Assembly (NCBI GenBank): GCA_016930035.1
Contig: JAFGHQ010000096.1
Location: forward strand, 1-47,569
Length of the DNA stretch: 47,569 nucleotides
Reading direction: 5' to 3'
From: Gammaproteobacteria bacterium
GTDB taxonomy: Bacteria > Pseudomonadota > Gammaproteobacteria > UBA12402
A model generated the notes under the pieces. The model saw only the letters and a list, made by a program, of their open reading frames with translations, ran no database searches and had not been told where the DNA came from. Of the stretch, positions 1 through 38,094 are shown one piece after another; the stretch's first letter is position 1; every line of letters begins with the position of its first letter. The translations under genes were made by a program, and so were the position numbers.

Positions 1-86
1 AAACGCGGTTTGACCCCTTTTAGCAATGCTTATAAATACTGGCTTCAGAGACACCACTAAACGTAAAACGGTATTTGACCCCCTTT
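1..86. repeat. TGACCCC-tagged doublet repeat (left window edge)
   Basis: aaacgcggtttgacccc ... aaacgtaaaacggtatttgacccccttt; 59-86 is identical to 47284-47311. Confidence 0.85.
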
Positions 87-2269: not shown

Positions 2270-2297
2270 AACGTGAATAATTTTAGGTGAATTTACT

Positions 2298-2369
2298 GTA
2301 CGGACAGGTCGCGGCCTGTCCTTACGATTTTTATATTATTTGTAATGGCCGTAGATCCGCGTCCCTTAC
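2298..2369. repeat. Two GTAG-type REP-like palindromes
   Basis: gtacggacaggtcgcggcctgtccttac (2298-2325) and degenerate gtaatggccgtagatccgcgtcccttac (2342-2369). Confidence 0.75.
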
Positions 2370-5929: not shown

Positions 5930-6143
5930 AAAGATTATAACGCTTTGATTTTTCTGGATCCTGAATCCAATTCAGGATGACACAGCTTCTTTGTCATCCT
6001 AGCTGGGATGCCAGGATCCAGTTGACAGGGATGTTAAATTAAGTACTCCTGGATCCTGAATCCAGTTCAGGATGACGGGACCTGGATTCTGAATCCAGTT
6101 CAGGATGACGGGACCTGGATCTTGAATCAAGTTCAGGATGACG
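5930..6143. repeat. Cluster of CGTC/GTCATCC-type palindromes including three 33-bp tandem units
   Basis: cctggatYYtgaatcMagttcaggatgacg units at 6048, 6081 and 6114; further copies at 5954-5981 and (inverted) 5993-6021. Confidence 0.9.
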
Positions 6144-6326
6144 AATGGGCAGATTCCGACATAGTGTGGGGGGGTGTGAAAAAAGAAAGTTGAGAAAAAA
6201 ATAAGAACGTTGAAGTGCGACTAAAAGATAAATAACTTATAACTAAAATTTTTTGATGAATCAATAGAAAAATGTTGTCGATCAGCAATTTCGGCACTAA
6301 ATTTTATTTAGTGCGAAAATTGTTGG

Positions 6327-8206: not shown

Positions 8207-9109
8207 ATGAACGGTATTTTGATTTTAGATAAACCCGTTGGCATGTCATCCAATCAGGCGTTACAGCGCGTCAAAAAAATATTGGGCGTTAAAAAGGCAG
8301 GGCATACCGGCGCTTTGGATGTTTTAGCAAGCGGGCTTTTGCCAATTTGTGTAGGTGAAGCAACTAAATTTAGTCAATTTTTATTAGAAGCAGACAAATA
8401 TTATCGTGTAACAGCTTATTTAGGAAAACGTACGACAACCTGTGATAGCGAAGGAGCGGTTATTGAAACGCGATCCATTTCTGATATAACGGAAGAAAAA
8501 TTAGATCACGTTTTAGCGCAGTTTCGCGGTGAGATTTGGCAAGTACCTTCCATGTTTTCAGCATTAAAGCACAAAGGACAACCTTTGTATAAATTAGCAC
8601 GAAAAGGGATTGAAATTGAACGTGAGCCCCGAAAAGTTACCATCTTTGAACTCAAGAAAATAAAATGGGCAGGACATGAGTTAACTTTGGAAGTTCGATG
8701 TTCTAAAGGAACTTACATTCGAAATTTAATTGATGACATTGGAAAAGCCTTAGGCTGTGGGGCTTATGTCTTGTCATTGAGACGTCTAGAAGCAGGCCCC
8801 TACAAAAGTGACCAAATGATCACGATTGATGCATTATCGATCTCACCAAGCAAGATAGGCGCCAGATACCTTTTACCCATCCCATCCATGTTCCCCCAAA
8901 TACCAACCGTTGTGGTCTCCGCACAAGACGCTCAAGCTCTTCGCCAAGGCCGATGCAACTTTTGGTGTCAGACACCAAAAGTTACATCGAAATTGGTGCA
9001 GCTCGTTGAGGAGTCAGGTCAGTTTTTTGGTATTGGAGAACTTTTTCCCGATGGTATACTTAAACCCAAGCGGTTAACAAGTAGTACTTGTGCAACAAAT
9101 GGTGTCTGA
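8207..9109 (+). CDS. truB: tRNA pseudouridine(55) synthase
   Basis: NGILILDKP, KAGHTGALD, CSKGTYIR. Confidence 0.95.
   Translation: MNGILILDKPVGMSSNQALQRVKKILGVKKAGHTGALDVLASGLLPICVGEATKFSQFLLEADKYYRVTAYLGKRTTTCDSEGAVIETRSISDITEEKLDHVLAQFRGEIWQVPSMFSALKHKGQPLYKLARKGIEIEREPRKVTIFELKKIKWAGHELTLEVRCSKGTYIRNLIDDIGKALGCGAYVLSLRRLEAGPYKSDQMITIDALSISPSKIGARYLLPIPSMFPQIPTVVVSAQDAQALRQGRCNFWCQTPKVTSKLVQLVEESGQFFGIGELFPDGILKPKRLTSSTCATNGV
8952..8988. repeat. 37-bp GGTGTCAGACACC palindrome, in frame inside truB
   Basis: gatgcaacttttggtgtcagacaccaaaagttacatc, read as [13 protein letters not shown]. Confidence 0.9.
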
Positions 9110-9126
9110 CATCATTTATTGCGTCA
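9089..9126. repeat. Degenerate 37-bp palindrome supplying the truB stop
   Basis: tgtgcaacaaatggtgtctgacatcatttattgcgtca; TGA at 9107-9109. Confidence 0.7.
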
Positions 9127-9153
9127 TTTTTTTTAACGAGAATATTAAATATT

Positions 9154-9474
9154 ATGTCGCTGATTATTGAACCTGATGTTGAAGTTTCTATAGCAGAAAT
9201 AGCAGAATCTGAATTAGACGAGAAAAATCATTATGCCGTTTTTTTGTTGTATCATGAAAAAACTCCCATGCTTTTTGTTGTAGAGTTGTTGGAACGTTTT
9301 TTTGATATTTCTCGAGAAACAGCTATTTTAATGACCATGGATATGTATCAATTAAAGCAACCGGTAAAATGTGGTGTTTATTCGCGAATAAAGGCAGAAG
9401 AAAAGAAAAACGCAGTTGAAAAATATGCCAAAGAACATCATCATTTAGTAGAATGTGTCATTAAGCAAGCATAG
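9154..9474 (+). CDS. clpS: ClpS-like adaptor, divergent
   Basis: TPMLFVVELLERFF, CGVYSRIKAEEK; directly upstream of clpA; ATG 9154 preferred because the longer start lies in a repeat. Confidence 0.8.
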   Translation: MSLIIEPDVEVSIAEIAESELDEKNHYAVFLLYHEKTPMLFVVELLERFFDISRETAILMTMDMYQLKQPVKCGVYSRIKAEEKKNAVEKYAKEHHHLVECVIKQA

Positions 9475-12255: not shown

Positions 12256-12292
12256 GATGTAACCTTTGGTGTCAGACACCAAAAGTTACATC
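12256..12292. repeat. 37-bp palindrome supplying the C-terminus and stop of the PAP2 gene
   Basis: gatgtaacctttggtgtcagacaccaaaagttacatc; minus strand reads DVTFGV*. Confidence 0.9.
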
Positions 12293-12937
12293 TATTGTAC
12301 GTTTTGTACACAGGGCTGTTACGGTACCTATGAAACTACCGGTGATTATGTCGCTTAAGAAGTGATAATCCAAAAAGAGCAGAGCAAAGGCCATGAATAA
12401 GATTATAAAGATCCAAAGCCAGCGAAGTTTGGGCAAAAAAATGATGAGAGGAATCATGGCGGCACAGATGACGGTCATGTGGCCTGAGGGGAAAGATGAA
12501 TAAGCTTGCGAACCATGAAACCAATGAAAACCATAAGCATGATCATGAATAAGAGATAGATTATGATGATACCAGGTTTTTGGCCAGTCGCGCCCGCAAT
12601 CATGTTTTAACGCATCGGTAAAAGCATTTGCAATGATGATAGAAAGGCTATAAACCAACAGTCCCGGTTTGAAGTTTGGAAATTTTAGGAATGCTGTTTC
12701 CTGTTGGATAAAAAAATAAACCATAATGCCGATCAAAGACGAGACGTAAATATAAGGTTTTATGTTGGTGAACAAAATAAGAAGATAATTAAACGGTAGT
12801 TGGATTCGGTTGACAAAAAAAGCGATCGGTTTATCCAGAAAATAGTAACTGAATGTAACAAGAAGTATGGTAGCAATAAAACTGATTAAAAGAATTTTAT
12901 AAAAGTTCAAGTTCGGTTTTTTTGTATTATTAATCAT
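12272..12937 (-). CDS. PAP2-family membrane phosphatase
   Basis: K....GRDWP, SFPSGH, HFLSDI; multiple hydrophobic segments. Confidence 0.85.
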
Positions 12938-14045
12938 AATGATACCTTTTAGCGTCAATCGCTCCACCACCTAAGCAAATTTCGCCGTCATAAAAAACTA
13001 CAAATTGGCCCGGTGTAATGGCGCGTTGGGGGTTTTTGAATGTCACTAGCAAAGACAAGTCACGATTTGTCTTTACCGATTGCATTGATATTGTACATTC
13101 TTGGTCCTTTTGACGATAACGTATTTTTGCTGTGCATAGAAATGGTAAGGGTGGGGCATTGCCGCTAATCCACGATAAATGTTTGGCAGTCAGCTGAGGT
13201 GAAAAAAGTTTTGGGTGATCGTGTCCTTGCCCAACCATGAGTACATTCCGGTTTAAATCTTTTTCAAGCACATACCAAGGAGCTTCAATAGCATTCTTTT
13301 TGCCACCAATACCTAGCCCTTGACGCTGGCCAATCGTATAAAACATTAAACCGTCATGTTTGCCAATGATTTTGCCTTGTTCGGTCTCAATATTCCCCGG
13401 TTGAGCAGGCAAATAATGTTCTAGAAAGGTTTTAAATTTCCGCTCACCAATAAAACAAATCCCTGTACTATCTTTTTTTGCCCAATTTTGAAATTCATGT
13501 TCTTTGGCGATGCGGCGTACCTCGGTTTTCGTGAGATTACCTACGGGGAATAAGGCTTTACTGAGTTGATATTGATTCAAGCCATGCAAGAAATAACTTT
13601 GATCTTTGTCGGCATCCATCCCTTTCAAGAGTTGAAATTCGGTTTCTTTTTTTCGGCAGCGCACAAAATGGCCTGTCGCGATAAAGTCAGCCCCAAGTGC
13701 TAAAGCATGGTCTAAAAAAGCTTTGAATTTAATTTGCGTGTTGCATAAAACATCCGGGTTGGGCGTTGCGCCTGATTGGTAGGTATCTAAAAAATAAGTA
13801 AAAACGTTGTCCCAGTACTCGCGCGAAAAATTGACGGTATGTAGCCGAATTCCCAGTTTTAAGCAAATGGTTTGAGCATCTAATAAATCTTGATCGGCTG
13901 AGCAGTTGCTGGGTTCGCCTTCATCTTCTTCCCAATTTTTCATAAACAGCCCTTCAACAGCGTAGCCTTGCTGTTTAAGAAGAAGGGCAGCGACGGAGGA
14001 GTCCACCCCGCCTGACATCCCGACAATGACGCGTTTTGAGTTCAT
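12930..14045 (-). CDS. mnmA: tRNA 2-thiouridine(34) synthase
   Basis: [48 protein letters not shown]. Confidence 0.97.
13049..13076. repeat. GTAG-type palindrome in frame inside mnmA
   Basis: Minus strand gtaaagacaaatcgtgacttgtctttgc = VKTNRDLSL; resembles 38067-38094. Confidence 0.7.
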
Positions 14046-14220: not shown

Positions 14221-15783
14221 TTAATGAGGTGCTCCTAAATGTAGACGAGGTTCCGTAGGCGTAATCCCTAATTGTTTAAAATATTTTTGAGTATCCGCCG
14301 GTAATCGAGCATGTTTAATAGCATATAAAATTTTTTCAGTCATTGCTTTTTGCGCGGAAAGTTTTTGTAAATGAACCGTTTCTAATTTTACATCGGATTT
14401 TAAGCTCGCGATGCCAAATGGGTCTTCTGTGATGAGATGATGAGGCAATGTCATGCTGGCGACGTAGACGGTAATCACACTTAAAAAAGCAGCATTAATA
14501 TCAGATTCCCATGAACGTTTTTTTTGGTCAGCATAGTGTAAAAAGTTTTGAATAGCTTTTTGACATTGTGCTTCATTAAACTCAAGATTGAGCCGTTCGA
14601 TAACAGCTTTGATCATGAGTTCTGCATCGAGCAGCAATAATTCGAATTCTTTGGAAGGGGTGGGAGGTGCAGTTTCTTCCGGCATTTTAGATTCTTTTTC
14701 CCAAAGTGATGCTTCAAATTTTGATTCTAAAATCAAAGCATCAAAACCACTGGTCATCAGCTGATTGATAAAATGGATAAACAATTCGTAAGCAACAAAA
14801 GCGTGCAATACTCCCTTCCCGATGTATTCAAAAAATTCTATTTTATCGAGCATTTTTGATTTTTTTGCATAAAAGAGTTTTTTATGAATAAAAAGATCAA
14901 AAATAGTATTACTCAGTTCAAAATGAATAATCGCTTCATCATATATTTTTCCCGTTTCATGGGCATCATTCATTAGTTTGGTTTCAATGCTTTTAGCTAT
15001 TTTATGAGAAAAATCCATAAGGATTTTATTAAAATCTATTATATATTGAGCATATTTCTCAAAACTTTTTTTCAGCACGTCTTTTTTATGATTTTCCATT
15101 ATTGTAACTTGAAATTTTTTAGAAAAATTTTGTATCCAGGCAGCTTTAATGCTTTGGTCACTATGATCAATATTGCCTTGATAGGATAACTGGAAATTGG
15201 CGGCATCCATAGTGCGTTGTTGGCGTTCTAAGGGCGCAATATAAAGTGATAGTAACTGAACAGCGCGCGCGTGCTTTTTATTTTTTGTGGATTGTTTGAG
15301 CTGTAAAGCAAATTTTCGAATAATATTTTGTACAGCATCAATTTTGGCCATTAAATATTTTTTTTGAAAATCATCTAAGATTAAACAATAAGCTAACTGA
15401 TCCACATCATCCAAAGAACACTGAAAATGCATATATTTTTCGATCAGAGCTGTAGGAAGCGATACATCGCGATCGGGTTTTGAAAAATTGGTTTTTAAAA
15501 ATTCAAAAATTTGATGCGTTTCATTTTTGTGAGTACGCGTTAATTGTTGAAAAGCGTCAGGAGAAACGTGATCTATAACCTTTTCAAGTAGTCTCTTCTC
15601 GGTGAATTTTAATTCAATAGGAATGTGTTGAGTATCCAACAAGATTTTTAGCCATTCGATCTCGATAAAAATTCGGTAATAAAAAAGACCATATTCCGAA
15701 AATAACGTTCGCAATGGCGATAGAATATCGGCATAAAGACTATCAAAAGTAGATAACGCAGTTGTTTCGTTTAAATAAATCAT
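14221..15783 (-). CDS. Adenylosuccinate-lyase-like protein lacking catalytic motifs, with extra C-terminal domain
   Basis: N-terminal ~340 aa align by eye with PurB at 22347-23717; no RTHGQ or SSTMPHK. Confidence 0.75.
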   Translation of the reverse strand: MIYLNETTALSTFDSLYADILSPLRTLFSEYGLFYYRIFIEIEWLKILLDTQHIPIELKFTEKRLLEKVIDHVSPDAFQQLTRTHKNETHQIFEFLKTNFSKPDRDVSLPTALIEKYMHFQCSLDDVDQLAYCLILDDFQKKYLMAKIDAVQNIIRKFALQLKQSTKNKKHARAVQLLSLYIAPLERQQRTMDAANFQLSYQGNIDHSDQSIKAAWIQNFSKKFQVTIMENHKKDVLKKSFEKYAQYIIDFNKILMDFSHKIAKSIETKLMNDAHETGKIYDEAIIHFELSNTIFDLFIHKKLFYAKKSKMLDKIEFFEYIGKGVLHAFVAYELFIHFINQLMTSGFDALILESKFEASLWEKESKMPEETAPPTPSKEFELLLLDAELMIKAVIERLNLEFNEAQCQKAIQNFLHYADQKKRSWESDINAAFLSVITVYVASMTLPHHLITEDPFGIASLKSDVKLETVHLQKLSAQKAMTEKILYAIKHARLPADTQKYFKQLGITPTEPRLHLGAPH

Positions 15784-15797
15784 TTTTTTTGAATTCA

Positions 15798-15834
15798 GAT
15801 GCAACTTTTGGTGTCAGACACCAAAAGTTACATT
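15798..15834. repeat. 37-bp palindrome
   Basis: gatgcaacttttggtgtcagacaccaaaagttacatt. Confidence 0.9.
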
Positions 15835-17623: not shown

Positions 17624-19681
17624 ATGGCATTTGATTTAACAAAGAAAAAAGAAGAAAAAACAAAATCCAAAATAAGGGAGTTGAAAAATATCTATGTAGA
17701 TTTAGATAGAGCTTCGGAAAAGGAAAGTGTTAAAAAGTTAATGGAAAATTTAGGGACGAAAAAATTACCTTTTGAGAAAAATGATTTATGGTTTGGAGAT
17801 ATGCATGGCAATGTTAAACGGCTTTTATGGTTGCTGTTCTCAATAGAAGGTTTTATCCCAGCAGACATAAACCCAGAGCTATTTGGAGAAGATTTAAAAA
17901 TAGTATGGGAAATTCTAGATAAGCCTTGGGACAAGTTAACAATAGAAGATTTAGCAATGGTGAGCGAATTTTTCAAAAACTCAATTAATCGGGATTTTAA
18001 TAGCGAAATAAATTTTCTAGGAGATGTGTTGGGTGACCGGGGATGGAATTATAAAAAACGAGCAGAAGATAGAGAAAGTAGTGGTGGAATAGAGAGGTTT
18101 AAAGTTGGCAATGATATATTTTCATTCTTATTATTAGAAAGTTTAAGTCAGTCAGGCAAATTGGGCAGTTTTATTATGGGTAATCATGAATCAGCTATTC
18201 TATTTTTGTTATGGACTATGAAAAATTTAGAAAAAAAGGAATTTAATGAGCTCTGGTCAAAAGGTGGACTTTCTTCGGGTATCGGTGAAATTGACAGCGC
18301 TCAATTCCTGACTGGAATAAATTTCGCTAAATTATTTTTAGAACTTGGTTGTTTATATGAGGAAAAAGAAGCATGGGGAAATAGAATTTTTAAGTTTTTA
18401 AAGGAACATGGACGATTTTCGGATCAACGTATGTACTTTGATGATGAAACAGGATCCTTGAGATTGACTCATGGGCAACATACCCCATTTTCCAGTGGCG
18501 AAAGGTTACGATCTCCATTGAAGTCTACCATGTTTGATAGCAGGATGCTTTCTAAAAGTATTCGTGGTGTATTTCAACGCGATAAGAATTTCGAAGCTTT
18601 TCTTGAAGAAATGTCTCGCTGGCCACTTGAAAAATTTCATAGCAATTTTACTCCTCGTGTCGAGGATTCCTGGGGGGGGTGTTTCTCGCTGAGGAAAAAA
18701 CCAAAAGAGAAAAAAGATAACATATCACCCCTGGCCTATTTTTTATGGTTTGGAACTCCTAACATTAAAGAATGTAAAGATGTTACGTTTTCTCAGCCTT
18801 TTTTTGGCAGTACAGCTGAGATTTGTTTTAAATGTATGTTCAAAGATACCTTTTGGCTTTCAGCACATGTTGGTGAATCTTATTTTCGTATTACAGAAGA
18901 CAAAACAGATAGCACAAGAGCAATACGTATCGGTTTAGATGTCCCGATTGGGAAATTGGGAGGTGTTCAGGAAGTAGGGAAAATACCATCTTTCGTTATA
19001 GATGGGGCAAAACGAGTTAAAGAAGAGAGACTAAATCAATTTATAGAGTTTTTTGATAGGTTAAATCGTTATTTAAGTACTTTTAAAGAAGAAATTGGAA
19101 AAGCAACATATGGAACTTCTGGTGAATACAAAGAATTATTAGATAAAACTTTGCAAACCATCCGTGAAAGAGCAAGTAAAACTTTGGTTGAAATTTTTCC
19201 AGAATTGGACGTGAAAAGGATCATAACTAATCTTTTAAGAGCGTTAAAAGAGCACCTCTTAAATATGATTGAGGAGAGGGTCAGAAAAGAAAAAAAATCT
19301 TCGGAGAAGAAGGAGATATTAGGGTGGATATCGAGAGAACAGCATGAAGAAAGAAAGCAAAGAAATCCTTCTTTTTGGGCAAAAAAAGGAACCGAGAAAA
19401 GAGAAATTAAAACAATCGTTACTGCAGAAAGAGCATCTGAATTTTGGAAAAAAGCACTAGCAGCGCAAGAAGGAACCGAGGAAAGCGAAATTAAAAGGAT
19501 CGTTACTGAAGAAAAAGCATCAAAAGCATCTGAATTTTTGGAAGAAGCACCAGTTGAATTTTTGGAAGAAGCACCAGTAGCGGAGGCAGAAGACGAGGGG
19601 GAAATGGAGGAAACGGAGGAGACAATTGAAACAGAAACTGAAGAAGAGTTCGATACGACAAAAAGACTCTTGTTCCATTAA
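17624..19681 (+). CDS. PPP/calcineurin-like metallophosphoesterase domain protein, candidate secreted effector
   Basis: GDMHGN, GDVLGDRG, GNHE, THG motifs; Glu-rich C-terminus. Confidence 0.75.
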   Translation: MAFDLTKKKEEKTKSKIRELKNIYVDLDRASEKESVKKLMENLGTKKLPFEKNDLWFGDMHGNVKRLLWLLFSIEGFIPADINPELFGEDLKIVWEILDKPWDKLTIEDLAMVSEFFKNSINRDFNSEINFLGDVLGDRGWNYKKRAEDRESSGGIERFKVGNDIFSFLLLESLSQSGKLGSFIMGNHESAILFLLWTMKNLEKKEFNELWSKGGLSSGIGEIDSAQFLTGINFAKLFLELGCLYEEKEAWGNRIFKFLKEHGRFSDQRMYFDDETGSLRLTHGQHTPFSSGERLRSPLKSTMFDSRMLSKSIRGVFQRDKNFEAFLEEMSRWPLEKFHSNFTPRVEDSWGGCFSLRKKPKEKKDNISPLAYFLWFGTPNIKECKDVTFSQPFFGSTAEICFKCMFKDTFWLSAHVGESYFRITEDKTDSTRAIRIGLDVPIGKLGGVQEVGKIPSFVIDGAKRVKEERLNQFIEFFDRLNRYLSTFKEEIGKATYGTSGEYKELLDKTLQTIRERASKTLVEIFPELDVKRIITNLLRALKEHLLNMIEERVRKEKKSSEKKEILGWISREQHEERKQRNPSFWAKKGTEKREIKTIVTAERASEFWKKALAAQEGTEESEIKRIVTEEKASKASEFLEEAPVEFLEEAPVAEAEDEGEMEETEETIETETEEEFDTTKRLLFH

Positions 19682-22064: not shown

Positions 22065-22089
22065 GATGTAACTTTTGGTGTCTGACACC
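22065..22089. repeat. Truncated 37-bp palindrome abutting an RBS
   Basis: gatgtaacttttggtgtctgacacc followed by tgagga. Confidence 0.8.
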
Positions 22090-22103
22090 TGAGGATTTTT
22101 GTC

Positions 22104-22346: not shown

Positions 22347-23717
22347 TTATTTCGATAATTGAACCGCTAGGCCTAAATAATTTTTAGGTGTGAGGTTTTT
22401 GAGTTCAAGTTTAACGGGCTTTGGTAGATCGAGCTGGTCAATAAATTGATGCAGCATTTGCTGCGTGATTTTTTTGCCGCGTGTAAAGGTTTTGAGCTTT
22501 TCATAAGCTTGTTCGATGCCATGTTTTCGCATTACCGTTTGAATGGGTTCTGCTAGAATTTCCCAGTGGTCGTTTAGGTCTTTTGAAATGCACTCTAAAT
22601 TTGGCGTGAGTTGGTTTAATCCTTTTTCTATGGATTGATAGCTTAAAATGCTGTGGGCAAAAGCTACTCCCACGTTACGTAAAACCGTTGAGTCAGATAG
22701 GTCGCGTTGAAAGCGCGAGATCGGGAGTTTATTAGCAAAATGTTGGAATAGGGCATTGCTTAATCCGAGATTGCCTTCAGCATTTTCAAAGTGAATCGGA
22801 TTAATTTTATGCGGCATCGTGGACGAGCCGACGGTTTTTTTGTCTACTTTTTGATCAAAATAATTCAATGAAATGTATCCCCAAATATCACGGCAAAAAT
22901 CGATCAAAATCGTATTAAACCGCATCATGGCGTGCGAAAGCTCAGCAATATCATCATGCGGCGCGATCTGAGTTGTGTGCGAGCTAAAATTTAGTCCCAA
23001 TCGTTCAATAAATTTTTGATTGATTTTATCCCAAGCAATATTGGGATAAGCCGCCACATGAGCATTATAATTCCCCACGGCGCCATTAAATTTGGCCATG
23101 ATATGGATTGCTTCAATTTGTTCTTTTTGACGATTCAGTCGATGCACAAAATTGGCGAATTCTTTCCCGAGCGTTGTGGGAGTTGCTGGTTGGCCATGCG
23201 TTCTTGAAAGCATAGAAATTTGAGCAAATTGTTTGGCTAATTTTTGAATCAACGCAATAAGTGAACTGATGTTTTTTAATAAAATGTCTTTTCGAAAGTC
23301 ATTCAAAATTAACGCATAAGCGGTGTTATTAATATCTTCTGAAGTGCACGCGAAATGCACAAATTCTGTAGGGACAGGTCGCGACCTGTCCTGGGTGTTT
23401 TTTTGTAGAACCTCTTTCAAAAAATATTCAACAGCTTTGACATCGTGATGAGTCGTTTTCTCGATTGCTTTAATTTTTTTCGCTTCATTGATGGAAAAAT
23501 GTTGAATCCAATTGTCTAAAAATTGATTGGTTTTAGCATCGAGCTTGGGTAGTTCTTTGATATCGGAAAGATTCGCCAAAAATTGCAACCAGCGGATTTC
23601 GACTAATAATCGGTATTTGATCAATGAGCATTCGCTAAAAAAGCGACGCAAATCTTTTAAAACATCGCCATAACGCCCATCAATGGGGGAAATAGCAGAA
23701 AGCATATTGAGTTCCAT
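22347..23717 (-). CDS. purB: Adenylosuccinate lyase
   Basis: SPIDGRY, HDVKAVEY, HFACTSEDIN, RTHGQPA, GSSTMPHKINP, QRDLSDS. Confidence 0.97.
   Translation of the reverse strand: MELNMLSAISPIDGRYGDVLKDLRRFFSECSLIKYRLLVEIRWLQFLANLSDIKELPKLDAKTNQFLDNWIQHFSINEAKKIKAIEKTTHHDVKAVEYFLKEVLQKNTQDRSRPVPTEFVHFACTSEDINNTAYALILNDFRKDILLKNISSLIALIQKLAKQFAQISMLSRTHGQPATPTTLGKEFANFVHRLNRQKEQIEAIHIMAKFNGAVGNYNAHVAAYPNIAWDKINQKFIERLGLNFSSHTTQIAPHDDIAELSHAMMRFNTILIDFCRDIWGYISLNYFDQKVDKKTVGSSTMPHKINPIHFENAEGNLGLSNALFQHFANKLPISRFQRDLSDSTVLRNVGVAFAHSILSYQSIEKGLNQLTPNLECISKDLNDHWEILAEPIQTVMRKHGIEQAYEKLKTFTRGKKITQQMLHQFIDQLDLPKPVKLELKNLTPKNYLGLAVQLSK
23368..23391. repeat. GTAG-type palindrome in frame inside purB
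   Basis: gtagggacaggtcgcgacctgtcc (20-bp perfect palindrome), read on minus as QDRSRPVPT. Confidence 0.9.
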
Positions 23718-23831: not shown

Positions 23832-23868
23832 GATGTAACCTTTGGTGTCAGACACCATTTGTTACATC
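23832..23868. repeat. 37-bp palindrome
   Basis: gatgtaacctttggtgtcagacaccatttgttacatc. Confidence 0.9.
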
Positions 23869-23902: not shown

Positions 23903-24519
23903 ATGACAGATAAAAATAATCAAAAGCAAAAAGGCGAGATTGTTATTTATAAATCTCCTGATGGATCAGAGATCCAAGTAAGACTTAACGAAGAATCTGT
24001 TTGGTTGGATGCGCATTTGATAGCAAAAATTTTTGGCGTTCAGCGCCCGGCTGTTGTAAAGCATATTCATAATATTTACAAAACCAGCGAATTAGACGAA
24101 AAATTAACCTGTTCCATTTTGGAACAAGTTGCCAAGGATGAAAAAAACAGAAAAATGAATTTATATAATTTAGATGTGATTATTTCTGTCGGTTACCGTG
24201 TTAATTCTCAAAAGGCTACGCAGTTTCGTATTTGGGCCACTAAAATTTTAAAGCAATACCTGGTCAAAGGGTACGCTGTTAATGAAGAACGGCTTTTGGA
24301 GGCCGGAAACAGGCTCAATGAATTACAAGAAGCCATTCTATTTTTACAGAAACAATCTCAAAAAGCATTGTTGAAAAGACAGGAAATAGAAATTCTAAAT
24401 TTATTGGGTGATTACTCCAAGACACTTTCATTGCTTGAGACACTTTGTTGATAGCAGGAAGTGATCCAAAGGATAAGGAAATCATGGTGAAAATCATAAA
24501 AAATTTGCTTATAGAATAG
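23903..24519 (+). pseudogene. RhuM-family (RhuM-Fic type) gene with apparent internal deletion and frameshift
   Basis: YNLDVIISVGYRVNSQKATQFRIWAT RhuM motif; stop at 24451; out-of-frame tail TLLIAGSDPKDKEIMVKIIKNLLIE* ends at 24519. Confidence 0.7.
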
Positions 24520-24555
24520 ATGCAACTTTTGGTGTCAGACACCAAAGGTTACATC
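24519..24555. repeat. 37-bp palindrome
   Basis: gatgcaacttttggtgtcagacaccaaaggttacatc. Confidence 0.9.
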
Positions 24556-37518: not shown

Positions 37519-38070
37519 ATGGATATCTTTAGTTATTTCAATTGGTTTGATTATACATTAATTGCAATTGTTATTTTTTCTTTATTAATTGGTCTTATGC
37601 GGGGTATGTTGCGCGAATTGCTATCTTTAGCAACATGGCTCGCTGCTATTTTAGTTGCCATTTTCTTTTCGAGTCATTTGGCAGGATTTTTTGGGCAGCA
37701 TATTAAATCACCTATTTTTGCATCTATCTTAAGTTTTATTTTGTTATTTTTTATTACGTTTATTATTGGTACTTTAGTGAATTACATCATTTCGGGTTTG
37801 GCAGGGAAATCAGGTGTTTTATTTATCGATCGTTTACTGGGGGCTTTGTTTGGATTCATCCGAGGAGTAGTTATAGCACTTTTCATGATATTAGTTATTA
37901 TTAATACAGGGTTTAAAAAAGCAGATTGGTTTACGCAATCTCTATCTTCAAAACAGTTAAGCAGTATGGTTGAAAATCTCACGAAAGAATTTATAGCGCC
38001 TATCATGCAAAAGAAACACCCAGTTGGAGAAATAAAATCATTAACTTCCGATATAGCAAAAAATAAGTAG
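37519..38070 (+). CDS. cvpA: CvpA-family membrane protein
   Basis: NWFDY..GLMRGMLRE, DRLLGALFGFIRG. Confidence 0.92.
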   Translation: MDIFSYFNWFDYTLIAIVIFSLLIGLMRGMLRELLSLATWLAAILVAIFFSSHLAGFFGQHIKSPIFASILSFILLFFITFIIGTLVNYIISGLAGKSGVLFIDRLLGALFGFIRGVVIALFMILVIINTGFKKADWFTQSLSSKQLSSMVENLTKEFIAPIMQKKHPVGEIKSLTSDIAKNK

Positions 38071-38094
38071 AGACAAGTCGCGACCTGTCCGTAC
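38067..38094. repeat. GTAG-type palindrome supplying the cvpA stop
   Basis: gTAGagacaagtcgcgacctgtccgtac. Confidence 0.85.

What the first reader, a model, noticed from the sequence alone, without database searches (positions are those of the whole stretch)
8951..8989. A mobile 37-bp palindrome translated in frame inside TruB
Seen: a near-perfect copy of the intergenic repeat (compare 15798 and 24519) lies in truB and encodes [13 protein letters not shown] in the C-terminal PUA-like region without breaking the frame. Established: Rickettsia palindromic elements insert in frame into housekeeping genes, but the classic coding ones are longer (roughly 100-150 bp). Inference: an independent, very short peptide-creating repeat family in a gammaproteobacterium.
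Basis: partly seen in the sequence, partly recalled or inferred. Interest (0 to 1): 0.75.

Follow-up and report, generated by a model that had tools for sequence, protein, structure and literature searches.

The report
REP-type hairpin repeat translated inside truB
The 37-base palindrome inside the tRNA-modifying gene truB is a real copy of a small hairpin DNA repeat (a REP-like element) scattered about 60 times through this small genome; repeats read as protein are a known kind, but this one also occurs, beside its likely copying enzyme, in an unrelated phylum.

Summary
Observation confirmed. Window 8952-8988 is a 37-bp palindrome in frame in an intact truB. It is one of about 59 copies in the 1.31-Mb genome (0 for a reversed control).

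It is not a clean 13-codon insertion. TruB is only 2-3 residues longer than its orthologues there. RibF (two copies) and TrmB also show less added length than a whole unit. The nearest TruB (71% identical, protein only) carries the same palindrome-coded peptide, with an F-to-I/K-to-N pair that a compensated stem change would give, so the copy looks old.

The family behaves like REP elements:
- 17 of 51 copies overlap stop codons (2.9% expected).
- 13 of 51 lie inside genes (82% expected).
- It is read in three frames in at least 9 genes.

Unexpected: the same palindrome (35 of 37 bases) occurs in Ilumatobacteraceae (Actinomycetota) MAGs. There it flanks RAYT-like Y1-transposase genes: 4 genes on both sides, 1 on one side at a contig end. 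This genome has one RAYT-like gene, of its own order's clade and flanked by a different repeat, so the family looks orphaned here.

Verdict: a new member of a known kind (intragenic REP), of moderate interest. Translation, mobility and the transfer route are inferred. No reads, RNA or proteome data bear on them.

The parts
8207..9109 (+). truB (tRNA pseudouridine-55 synthase), 300 aa, intact
   Evidence: ORF. Pfam TruB_N 4.8e-58, TruB_C_2 and TruB-C_2. AlphaFold2 model with mean pLDDT 92.9. TM 0.90 to E. coli TruB 1k8w.
8952..8988 (.). 37-bp palindrome (REP-like, short form) in frame in truB. Codons 8951-8989 = [13 protein letters not shown] (TruB residues 249-261).
   Evidence: The RNA hairpin is -22.2 kcal/mol on the sense strand and -27.1 on the antisense strand. 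In the model, residues 251-260 have mean pLDDT 76, with a short strand at 251-252 and a loop at 253-262.
9089..9125 (.). Degenerate second copy (11 mismatches to consensus, 13 of 18 arm pairs). It encodes the last truB codons (..CATNGV) and the TGA stop at 9107-9109 in its loop.
   Evidence: (family D1). The hairpin is weak (-13.3 kcal/mol, z -1.8).
9127..9134 (+). Run of 8 T just after the second hairpin; a possible intrinsic terminator between truB and clpS
   Evidence: Sequence. Inference only; the fold is weak.
12256..12292 (.). Family copy. The gene at 12272-12970(-) ends at the TGA in its loop (21-nt overlap).
15798..15834 (.). Family copy at the 5' edge of ORF 14221-15804(-)
22065..22101 (.). 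Half-decayed copy (one arm and the core kept, 9 mismatches)
23832..23868 (.). Intergenic family copy, differing from the consensus at stem positions 26-28 (ATTT where the consensus has AAAA)
24519..24555 (.). Intergenic family copy

Best explanation
The palindrome in truB is one copy of a REP-type hairpin repeat family. The short form is 37 bp, with consensus ttGATG(C/T)AACnTTTGGTGTC(A/T)GACACCAAAnGTT(G/A)CATCaa. There are also about 10 longer forms in which the centre is doubled. In Ilumatobacteraceae the same hairpin brackets RAYT-like Y1/HUH transposase genes, the classic REPtron layout. The most likely origin of the copies is therefore single-strand hairpin recognition and copying by such an enzyme (inferred, not shown).

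In this small genome the copies that survive are mainly those that do little harm:
- Some lie just after genes, where the element's own TGA/TAA triplets often become the stop codon.
- Some form C-terminal tails.
- A few lie in tolerant loops, in one of the five of six frames that have no stop.

The truB copy lies in the PUA-type domain. It takes the place of a short beta-strand and loop rather than adding 13 residues, and it is read through as part of an intact TruB. Both truB copies (internal and terminal) appear to predate the split from the nearest known relative. The stem has stayed paired through paired changes. No cognate RAYT is found in this genome, so the family is either orphaned here or served by the one resident RAYT-like gene.
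For: Family and hairpin:
- 59 copies against 0 for the reversed control.
- 51 short-form copies have at least 13 of 18 arm pairs, and 14 are perfect.
- The stem covaries: positions 5/33 are TA 21, CG 21, CA 6, TG 3; positions 9/29 are TA 25, AT 6, CG 5, with 15 not Watson-Crick.
- The flanks show no target duplication.

REP-like placement, on my crude set of 1061 ORFs of at least 100 aa:
- 17 of 51 copies overlap a stop codon, against 2.9% for random placement (p 4e-14).
- 13 of 51 lie inside genes, against 82% (p 1e-18).

Translation in three frames: 5 internal copies, 4 C-terminal tails in the 51-copy count, and a fifth tail (TtcA-like, C103) outside it.

truB:
- The ORF is intact with TruB domains and the model is confident.
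- There are 14 residues between G248 and V263, against 11 in the two closest genera, 12 in E. coli TruB, and 11-15 across the 25 orthologues that cover this segment (28 were aligned).
- P0002 (71% identical) reads G-CNIWCQTPNVA-L and ends in QCNVRCLTP.

Replacement elsewhere:
- RibF is +7 or +8 residues at each of its two copies.
- The TrmB segment is 18 aa, against 19-25 or more in 8 relatives.

RAYT link:
- In 4 Ilumatobacteraceae genomes, 5 Y1_Tnp genes have the palindrome core on both sides (L162, L164, L165, L167) or on one side at a contig end (L163).
- A fifth genome, with only 2 copies, has a broken RAYT-like gene.
- The copy flanking the gene in L062/L162 is identical at 35 of 37 bases to G000 copies such as C68:14760.
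Against: - No RAYT-like gene flanked by this palindrome exists in the 93%-complete assembly. The single Y1_Tnp gene (C54) is flanked by a different 27-copy repeat and groups with RAYT-like genes of its own order.
- The element lacks the GT[AG]G or CGTC foot that defines the described REP superfamilies.
- Net length changes are smaller than one unit in 4 of 4 internal copies examined. A plain cut-and-insert does not explain this; extra deletions or another route must be assumed.
- Many copies are identical or nearly so, although REP populations without a RAYT are said to decay (10.1101/2021.07.10.451892, passage seen).
- There is no sign of selection on the transcribed strand: G:U 14 against A:C 13, and loop A 16 against loop T 15, in 31 copies.
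- Nothing shows transcription or translation.
- P0002 is known as protein only, so its palindrome is inferred.
Confidence: 0.72

Rival explanations
1. The palindromes are host cis-elements kept by selection for a function, such as mRNA 3'-end protecting or terminating hairpins, or binding sites of a DNA-binding protein. On this view they are not copies spread by a transposase, and the truB copy is a functional site within the message.
For: Copies lie strongly at gene 3' ends (17 of 51 on stop codons). The hairpins are stable. The stem is kept by paired changes. The sequence is conserved across two phyla. No cognate enzyme is found in this genome. REPs are credited with such roles (PMC3733652, passages seen).
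Against: No bias toward G:U over A:C on the transcribed strand, and no loop orientation bias. Most copies lack a T run. No Rfam family matches. The family is absent from 400 of 400 other sampled genomes of the class and from 12 of 13 in the order, so it is not a conserved host signal. In Ilumatobacteraceae it brackets RAYT-like genes. The two views are not exclusive.
Confidence: 0.15
2. The copy entered truB, and the other genes, by templated patch repair or gene conversion from another copy. This overwrote native codons in one step. It was not a transposase insertion followed by deletions.
For: In 4 of 4 internal copies examined the net change is less than one unit: TruB +2 or +3, RibF +7 and +8, TrmB 0 or fewer. 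In P0002 the 11 palindrome-coded residues fill almost the whole segment at normal length. No target duplication is seen. Copies are unusually uniform.
Against: No empty or intermediate site is available. The orthologues are only 45-58% identical, apart from P0002 at 71%, so loop alignments are soft. Later deletions under selection for domain size explain the same data.
Confidence: 0.2
3. The truB copy marks a decaying or dispensable PUA domain, so that TruB is functionally truncated and the peptide has no role in a working protein.
For: TruB in two relatives of genus g9, and in one further genome, appears to end near query residue 224 and to lack the PUA-type domain. Confidence is lower over the segment (pLDDT 76).
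Against: The frame stays open for 39 more codons, which align well with orthologues (GIGE..KRL). The same layout is kept in a 71%-identical orthologue. The domain is modelled with pLDDT 94-95 on either side.
Confidence: 0.08
4. Assembly artefact: a repeat-induced chimeric join or a collapsed repeat placed the palindrome in truB.
For: The genome is a 114-contig metagenome bin. The repeat is multi-copy. Contigs of the public run often end at the palindrome.
Against: Both flanks are truB and in frame. 0 of 228 contig ends of this assembly carry the motif. The one holder run contains 0.99 of the sampled words of 8400-9400, though it may be the source of this DNA. An independent contig from a relative encodes the same arrangement.
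Confidence: 0.02

Closest known systems
REP elements with RAYT/TnpA_REP genes ('REPtrons'; REPIN-RAYT systems)
   Same: Short hairpin-forming palindromes in tens of copies, mostly just downstream of genes. In Ilumatobacteraceae they bracket a Y1/HUH transposase-like gene on both sides. Close homologues of that gene are labelled 'REP element-mobilizing transposase RayT' by one source.
   Different: There is no GT[AG]G or CGTC foot. In this genome no gene is bracketed by the repeat. The HuH and Y motifs I read (NHYH; YIHLNP/YIHRNP) resemble a table row of PMC6006769 that is listed without REPs. That row's label was cut off in the passage I saw, so the subclass is tentative. REPIN-RAYT systems are described as almost wholly vertical (10.1101/2021.07.10.451892, passages seen), whereas this hairpin is shared by two phyla.
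Intragenic REPs (Di Nocera et al. 2013, PMC3733652; passages seen)
   Same: REPs of 20-40 bp lying wholly within ORFs of known proteins and encoding extra residues. REP ends supply stop codons to flanking ORFs.
   Different: Those families are tagged with GTAG or CGTC. I did not see their supplementary list of target genes, so I cannot say whether truB, ribF or trmB appear there. Replacement of native residues, and persistence across diverged orthologues, is not mentioned in the passages I read.
'Double-foot' REPs and in-frame REPs inside tnpA_REP genes of subclass 2.4 (Quentin et al. 2018, PMC6006769; passages seen)
   Same: A symmetric REP carries the foot at both ends and is said to be derivable from an inverted REP dimer by central deletion. 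Here the 37-bp form relates in just that way to the doubled-centre form. In-frame REP copies do not break the host gene. In L128 the RAYT-like gene's own C-terminus is palindrome-coded (..RLVSDTKRCVSG).
   Different: The foot sequence differs, and the enzyme does not carry the NH[IFV]H/YIxNNP motifs given for subclass 2.4.
Rickettsia palindromic elements
   Same: A selfish palindromic repeat lying in frame in housekeeping genes of a small-genome bacterium.
   Different: This unit is 37 bp, is REP-like, and replaces residues rather than adding a module. No RPE sequence was compared here.
QMITE1/QMITE2 of Coxiella burnetii (PMC5896051; abstract and passages seen)
   Same: Small repeats in a related group of intracellular gammaproteobacteria. 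Insertions that affect functional genes lie at their 3' ends.
   Different: QMITE2 is 150-190 bp, with terminal inverted repeats and 7-11-nt direct repeats. The element here has no direct repeats and is a single hairpin.

Membership tests
REP / REPtron (REP + RAYT) | Short (about 20-65 nt) hairpin-forming repeat in many copies, largely extragenic | tested here: met
   59 copies against 0 for the control. Hairpins fold at -18 to -27 kcal/mol, z -4 to -8. 13 of 51 copies lie inside genes, against 82% expected.
REP / REPtron (REP + RAYT) | Conserved 5' GT[AG]G (or CGTC) tetranucleotide at the hairpin foot | tested here: not met
   The consensus of 49 copies begins ttGATG(C/T)AAC, and no conserved GT[AG]G or CGTC stands at either end.
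REP / REPtron (REP + RAYT) | Copies bracket a Y1/HUH RAYT gene | tested here: inconclusive
   Met in Ilumatobacteraceae: 4 genes have the core on both sides and 1 has it on one side at a contig end. Not met in this genome: its one Y1_Tnp gene is flanked by another repeat.
REP / REPtron (REP + RAYT) | The RAYT binds and cuts the hairpin as single-stranded DNA | not testable with these tools
   This needs biochemistry.
Double-foot REP (PMC6006769) | The foot and its reverse complement stand at the two ends, and the form is derivable from an inverted REP dimer by central deletion | tested here: inconclusive
   The unit is a full palindrome. About 10 doubled-centre forms (GGTGTCAGACAC-nnnn-GTGTCTGACACC within the same arms) coexist with it. 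The foot is not GT[AG]G.
Rickettsia palindromic elements | Unit of about 100-150 bp added in frame as a peptide module | tested here: not met
   The unit is 37 bp. The net change in TruB is +2 or +3 residues.
MITE (e.g. QMITE) | Terminal inverted repeats around a non-palindromic body, with target-site direct repeats | tested here: not met
   No conserved or duplicated flanks lie beyond tt..aa in 49 aligned copies.
TruB (host gene) | TruB_N catalytic domain plus a C-terminal PUA-type domain, with the fold of E. coli TruB | tested here: met
   Pfam hits. TM 0.90, 46% identity to 1k8w. phmmer 1e-79.

The most novel reading that the evidence does not exclude
A single REP hairpin has crossed phyla. 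In actinobacterial Ilumatobacteraceae it lives with its cognate RAYT-like genes. In a reduced gammaproteobacterium it thrives as about 60 near-uniform copies with no cognate enzyme in view. There it overwrites, rather than extends, segments of housekeeping proteins and stays palindromic through speciation by paired changes. If so, REP populations can move horizontally and persist either without their own RAYT or by using a distantly related resident one. That runs against the picture of strictly vertical, RAYT-dependent REPIN populations.
Probability: 0.3. Interest if true: 0.7.

Novelty: new member of a known kind. Interest (0 to 1): 0.5.

Why it matters
For truB itself this is an ordinary, already described kind of event: a REP-like hairpin tolerated in frame. 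Three points go beyond that.

1. In the four internal copies examined, the repeat takes the place of native residues instead of adding a module. This bears on how such elements enter genes and how proteins absorb them.
2. The truB copies seem to be kept at the same places in an orthologue 29% diverged, with a paired F-to-I/K-to-N change. This gives a rare handle on the age of intragenic repeats and the constraint on them.
3. The same 37-base hairpin (35 of 37 bases) lies with RAYT-like genes in a different phylum, while this genome shows no cognate enzyme. This makes the question of whether REPs can transfer and persist without their own RAYT directly testable.

Tried and rejected
- Reads: one run holds the stretch (0.99 of sampled words; it may be the source). 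Laying its contigs put only other palindrome copies on 8944-9011, and no contig across truB was among the 56% of the run that was read. This gives no verdict on misassembly or polymorphism.
- RNA: no RNA holder is listed, and the two metatranscriptomes of the same study laid nothing.
- DNA of the P0002 relative could not be fetched. Two metagenome scans for G000-type variants found 0 stretches.
- Viral contigs, plasmids and phages: no match.
- A closer RibF orthologue was sought. The best is 49% identical, so the age of the RibF copies is unknown.
- Strand bias of wobble pairs and of the loop base was tested as a sign of RNA-level selection. None was found.
- Co-transfer of a RAYT was rejected. 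This genome's RAYT-like gene groups with its own order (support 100/99; 13 rows; midpoint root for drawing only). The 120 best homologues of the flanked Ilumatobacteraceae gene that carry names are all actinobacterial or unnamed.
- Loss of a REPtron at assembly breaks is unlikely: 0 of 228 contig ends carry the motif.
- Rfam has no family on any copy.
- The first fuzzy-regex scan missed copies and was replaced by an exhaustive Hamming scan.
- The fifth internal copy (922-aa nuclease-like ORF on C96) was not aligned to orthologues.

Full report
**The observation**

Window 8952-8988 reads GATGCAACTTTTGGTGTCAGACACCAAAAGTTACATC, a 37-bp palindrome around a central A with one C/A mismatch. It lies in ORF 8207-9109(+), 300 aa, which matches Pfam TruB_N (4.8e-58), TruB_C_2 and the TruB C-terminal PUA-type domain. 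Codons 8951-8989 read [13 protein letters not shown]. Within 3 mismatches the window has 4 places (8952, 12256, 15798, 24519) and none in 100 shuffles.

The window is contig C18 of a 1.31-Mb, 114-contig, 38% G+C genome rated 93.4% complete. An exhaustive Hamming scan finds 59 places within 11 mismatches of the consensus (6 identical, 24 within 2). The reversed pattern gives 0.

It encodes the last truB codons, gives the TGA stop (9107-9109) from its loop, and is followed by 8 T.

**Anatomy of the family**

Aligning the 49 copies with up to 7 mismatches gives ttGATG(C/T)AACnTTTGGTGTCAGACACCAAAnGTT(G/A)CATCaa. Nothing is conserved or duplicated beyond this, so there is no target-site duplication.

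The 13-base core GGTGTC(A/T)GACACC occurs at 85 places with up to 1 mismatch, against 1 for scrambled controls. Of these:
- 51 have at least 13 of 18 arm pairs, and 14 are perfect.
- About 10 are longer forms in which the centre is doubled (GGTGTCAGACAC-nnnn-GTGTCTGACACC) inside the same arms.

The stem covaries. Positions 5/33 are TA 21, CG 21, CA 6, TG 3. Positions 9/29 are TA 25, AT 6, CG 5, with 15 not Watson-Crick. As RNA the truB copy folds at -22.2 kcal/mol on the sense strand and -27.1 on the antisense strand. No Rfam family matches any copy.

**Where the copies lie**

I used a crude gene set: 1061 non-overlapping ORFs of at least 100 aa, covering 85% of the genome. The 51 short copies divide as follows:
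- 19 intergenic.
- 16 overlapping a stop codon. The overlap is 2 nt (T|GA at the edge), 7 nt (TAA in GATGTAAC) or 21 nt (TGA in a T-loop).
- 5 internal and in frame.
- 4 forming C-terminal tails.
- 7 at ORF starts. These are probably upstream of the true starts.

A second count also scores as a stop overlap one copy that one search had filed under an ORF start. It gives 17 of 51 on stop codons against 2.9% for random placement, and 13 of 51 inside genes against 82% (p 4e-14 and 1e-18).

The unit has no stop in five of six frames, and all three sense frames are used:
- [12 protein letters not shown]: a 922-aa nuclease-like ORF, a TrmB-containing ORF, and the tails of a MinD/ParA-like protein, the CCA-adding enzyme and another ORF.
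- MQ(L/H)LVSDTKSCI: RibF twice, and a TtcA-like tail.
- [12 protein letters not shown]: TruB, a lipoprotein tail, and a transposase-like ORF.

The protein names other than TruB and RibF are my reading of the sequences and were not tested.

In the 31 copies with one inferred direction of transcription, G:U (14) does not exceed A:C (13), and loop A (16) equals loop T (15). Nothing therefore points to selection on one transcribed strand.

**Is the truB copy an insertion?**

Not a simple one. I aligned TruB with 28 orthologues from related genomes and with 11 database homologues. The window has 14 residues between the conserved G(Q/R) and V-x-L. The orthologues that cover this segment have 11-15, the two closest genera 11 (codon view), and E. 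coli TruB 12. The 13 palindrome codons thus stand in place of native codons, for a net gain of +2 or +3.

The AlphaFold2 model (94-row alignment, mean pLDDT 92.9) places a two-residue strand at 251-252 and a loop at 253-262, with mean pLDDT 76 there and 94-95 on either side. The model superposes on E. coli TruB 1k8w at TM 0.90.

The same holds elsewhere:
- Each of the two RibF copies adds 7 or 8 residues, not 13 (15 orthologues).
- The TrmB segment holding the peptide is 18 aa, against 19-25 or more in 8 relatives.

So 4 of the 4 internal copies examined, out of 5 in all, replace sequence.

**Age**

The nearest TruB in the protein collection, P0002, is 71% identical and comes from a 1735-base contig; only the protein is available. 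It reads ..HHG-CNIWCQTPNVA-LVQL.. at the same place and has normal segment length.

CNIWCQTPNVA is the translation of the palindrome subtype ..AACATTTGG..CCAAATGTT.. that also exists in this genome (for example C52:7020). F-to-I and K-to-N are exactly the two changes a compensated stem pair would give. P0002 ends in QCNVRCLTP, which looks like the terminal palindrome read in another frame.

I infer, without the DNA, that both truB copies predate the split of the two lineages and have stayed palindromic. The peptide is in an orthologue, but most likely because the repeat is there too.

**Distribution**

- At up to 3 mismatches, the 37-mer is in 0 of 40 relatives.
- The 15-base core is in 1 of the 13 other genomes of the order: G013, with 2 places, both of the doubled-centre kind.
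- A 19-base core is in 0 of 400 other sampled genomes of the class.

All 80 listed are from MAGs titled Ilumatobacteraceae (Actinomycetota), from several studies, with 59-69% G+C. The window's own genome may be left out of such scans, and other taxa may lie beyond the limit.

In those MAGs the unit is (GAT)GTAACGTTTGGTGTC(A/T)GACACCAAACGTTAC(ATC), often directly after TGA. Counts of the 19-mer are 73, 15, 14, 7 and 2 in five such genomes. It is in only 1 of 80 further genomes sampled from that family.

**The enzyme link**

ORFs beside the palindrome in these MAGs match this genome's only Y1_Tnp gene at about 40% identity and carry Pfam Y1_Tnp. The core lies on both sides of the gene in L162 (G045), L164 (G044), and L165 and L167 (both G041). 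In L163 (G042) it lies on one side, with the contig ending on the other. Three paralogues have none. G043, with 2 palindromes, has only broken pieces of such a gene. The copies bracketing L062/L162 are 35 of 37 identical to G000 copies.

This is the REPtron layout, so I read the palindrome as a REP of a RAYT-like enzyme. Close homologues of that enzyme are labelled RayT by JGI or come from Ilumatobacteraceae/Actinomycetota.

In this genome:
- The only Y1_Tnp gene (C54, 334 aa) is bracketed by a different repeat, AAAACGTAAAACGCGGTTTGA.., which has 27 copies.
- That gene groups with RAYT-like genes of its own order and apart from the Ilumatobacteraceae clade (support 100/99; 13 rows).
- tblastn finds no second copy.
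- No contig end carries the motif (0 of 228).

The family is thus orphaned here, as far as a 93%-complete bin can show.

**Comparison with what is known**

- PMC3733652 (passages seen) already reports 20-40-bp REPs wholly inside ORFs of known proteins, and REP ends supplying stop codons.
- PMC6006769 (passages seen) reports in-frame REPs inside tnpA_REP genes. It also reports 'double-foot' REPs derivable from inverted dimers by central deletion, and a patchy distribution of some subclasses consistent with horizontal transfer.
- 10.1101/2021.07.10.451892 (passages seen) holds that REPIN-RAYT systems are almost exclusively vertical and decay without their RAYT.
- QMITEs of Coxiella are larger elements with direct repeats (PMC5896051, abstract and passages seen).

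The element here fails the GT[AG]G/CGTC foot test, so I do not file it in those superfamilies, but it works like a REP.

Earlier notes of this scan:
- One describes a GTAG-type REP in this same genome (e1-903570). I saw that family in the window.
- One describes an apparently undescribed hairpin repeat after stop codons in Ilumatobacteraceae (e1-2490392). I could not check whether it is the same sequence.
- Several describe in-frame REP-like hairpins in other phyla.

The kind of event has therefore been met before in this scan.

**Verdict**

- Shown: the copies, their placement, the open frames, the length comparisons, the covariation, and the bracketing of RAYT-like genes in Ilumatobacteraceae.
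- Inferred: translation, mobilisation by a RAYT, the age of the truB copies, and transfer between phyla.
- Not obtained: reads across truB, RNA, proteome data, the relative's DNA, and the supplements of the two REP papers.

Noticed in passing
window 35-86 and 47219-47325; G000:C54 (L031 779-869 and 2249-2339): A separate 27-copy repeat, AAAACGTAAAACG(C)GGTTTGA(CCCC), usually occurs in pairs about 64 nt apart. It brackets the genome's only RAYT-like Y1_Tnp gene in inverted orientation, and two copies lie at the ends of this window.
   Followed up: partly
window 2287-2321, 23357-23391, 38056-38090: A GTAG-tagged REP family with a 20-bp perfect palindrome, GGACAGGTCGCGACCTGTCC. There are 30 strand matches in the genome, 11 with the GTAG tag.
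   Followed up: partly
window 5953-6146 (and inverted partner 42587-42634): Four head-to-tail 33-nt units, CCTGGATCCTGAATCCAGTTCAGGATGACGGGA, each itself hairpin-forming. They lie downstream of typA/bipA.
   Followed up: no
L006 (G013), L007 (G008), L019 (G016): TruB in these relatives appears to end near residue 224 of the query (open frames of 240-254 aa) and so to lack the PUA-type domain. The domain may therefore be dispensable in this group.
   Followed up: no
G000:C89:26951-28807: One 618-aa open frame joins a membrane/alpha-beta-hydrolase-like N-terminal part to TrmB. TrmB is a separate ORF of about 230 aa in relatives. This may be a fusion or a missed start.
   Followed up: no
G041 loci such as L070 407-492 and 977-1062, L082, L099: In one Ilumatobacteraceae MAG the palindrome often comes as pairs 59 nt apart with a conserved 32-nt spacer (REPIN-like doublets), and in L070 as a tandem 570-nt duplication.
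   Followed up: no
G043:C18:596559-597127 (L166, L171): The Ilumatobacteraceae genome with only 2 palindrome copies has its RAYT-like gene in three out-of-frame pieces with a stop. This fits repeat decay after loss of the enzyme.
   Followed up: partly
public run X1, contigs laid on window 8946-9151: Palindrome-bearing contigs fall into two depth classes, about 30x and about 6x. A second, rarer carrier of the repeat may therefore be in the same sample.
   Followed up: no
window 19383-19577: Imperfect direct repeats of 24-93 nt spacing in an A/G-rich stretch (families D4 and D6); probably a coding tandem repeat.
   Followed up: no
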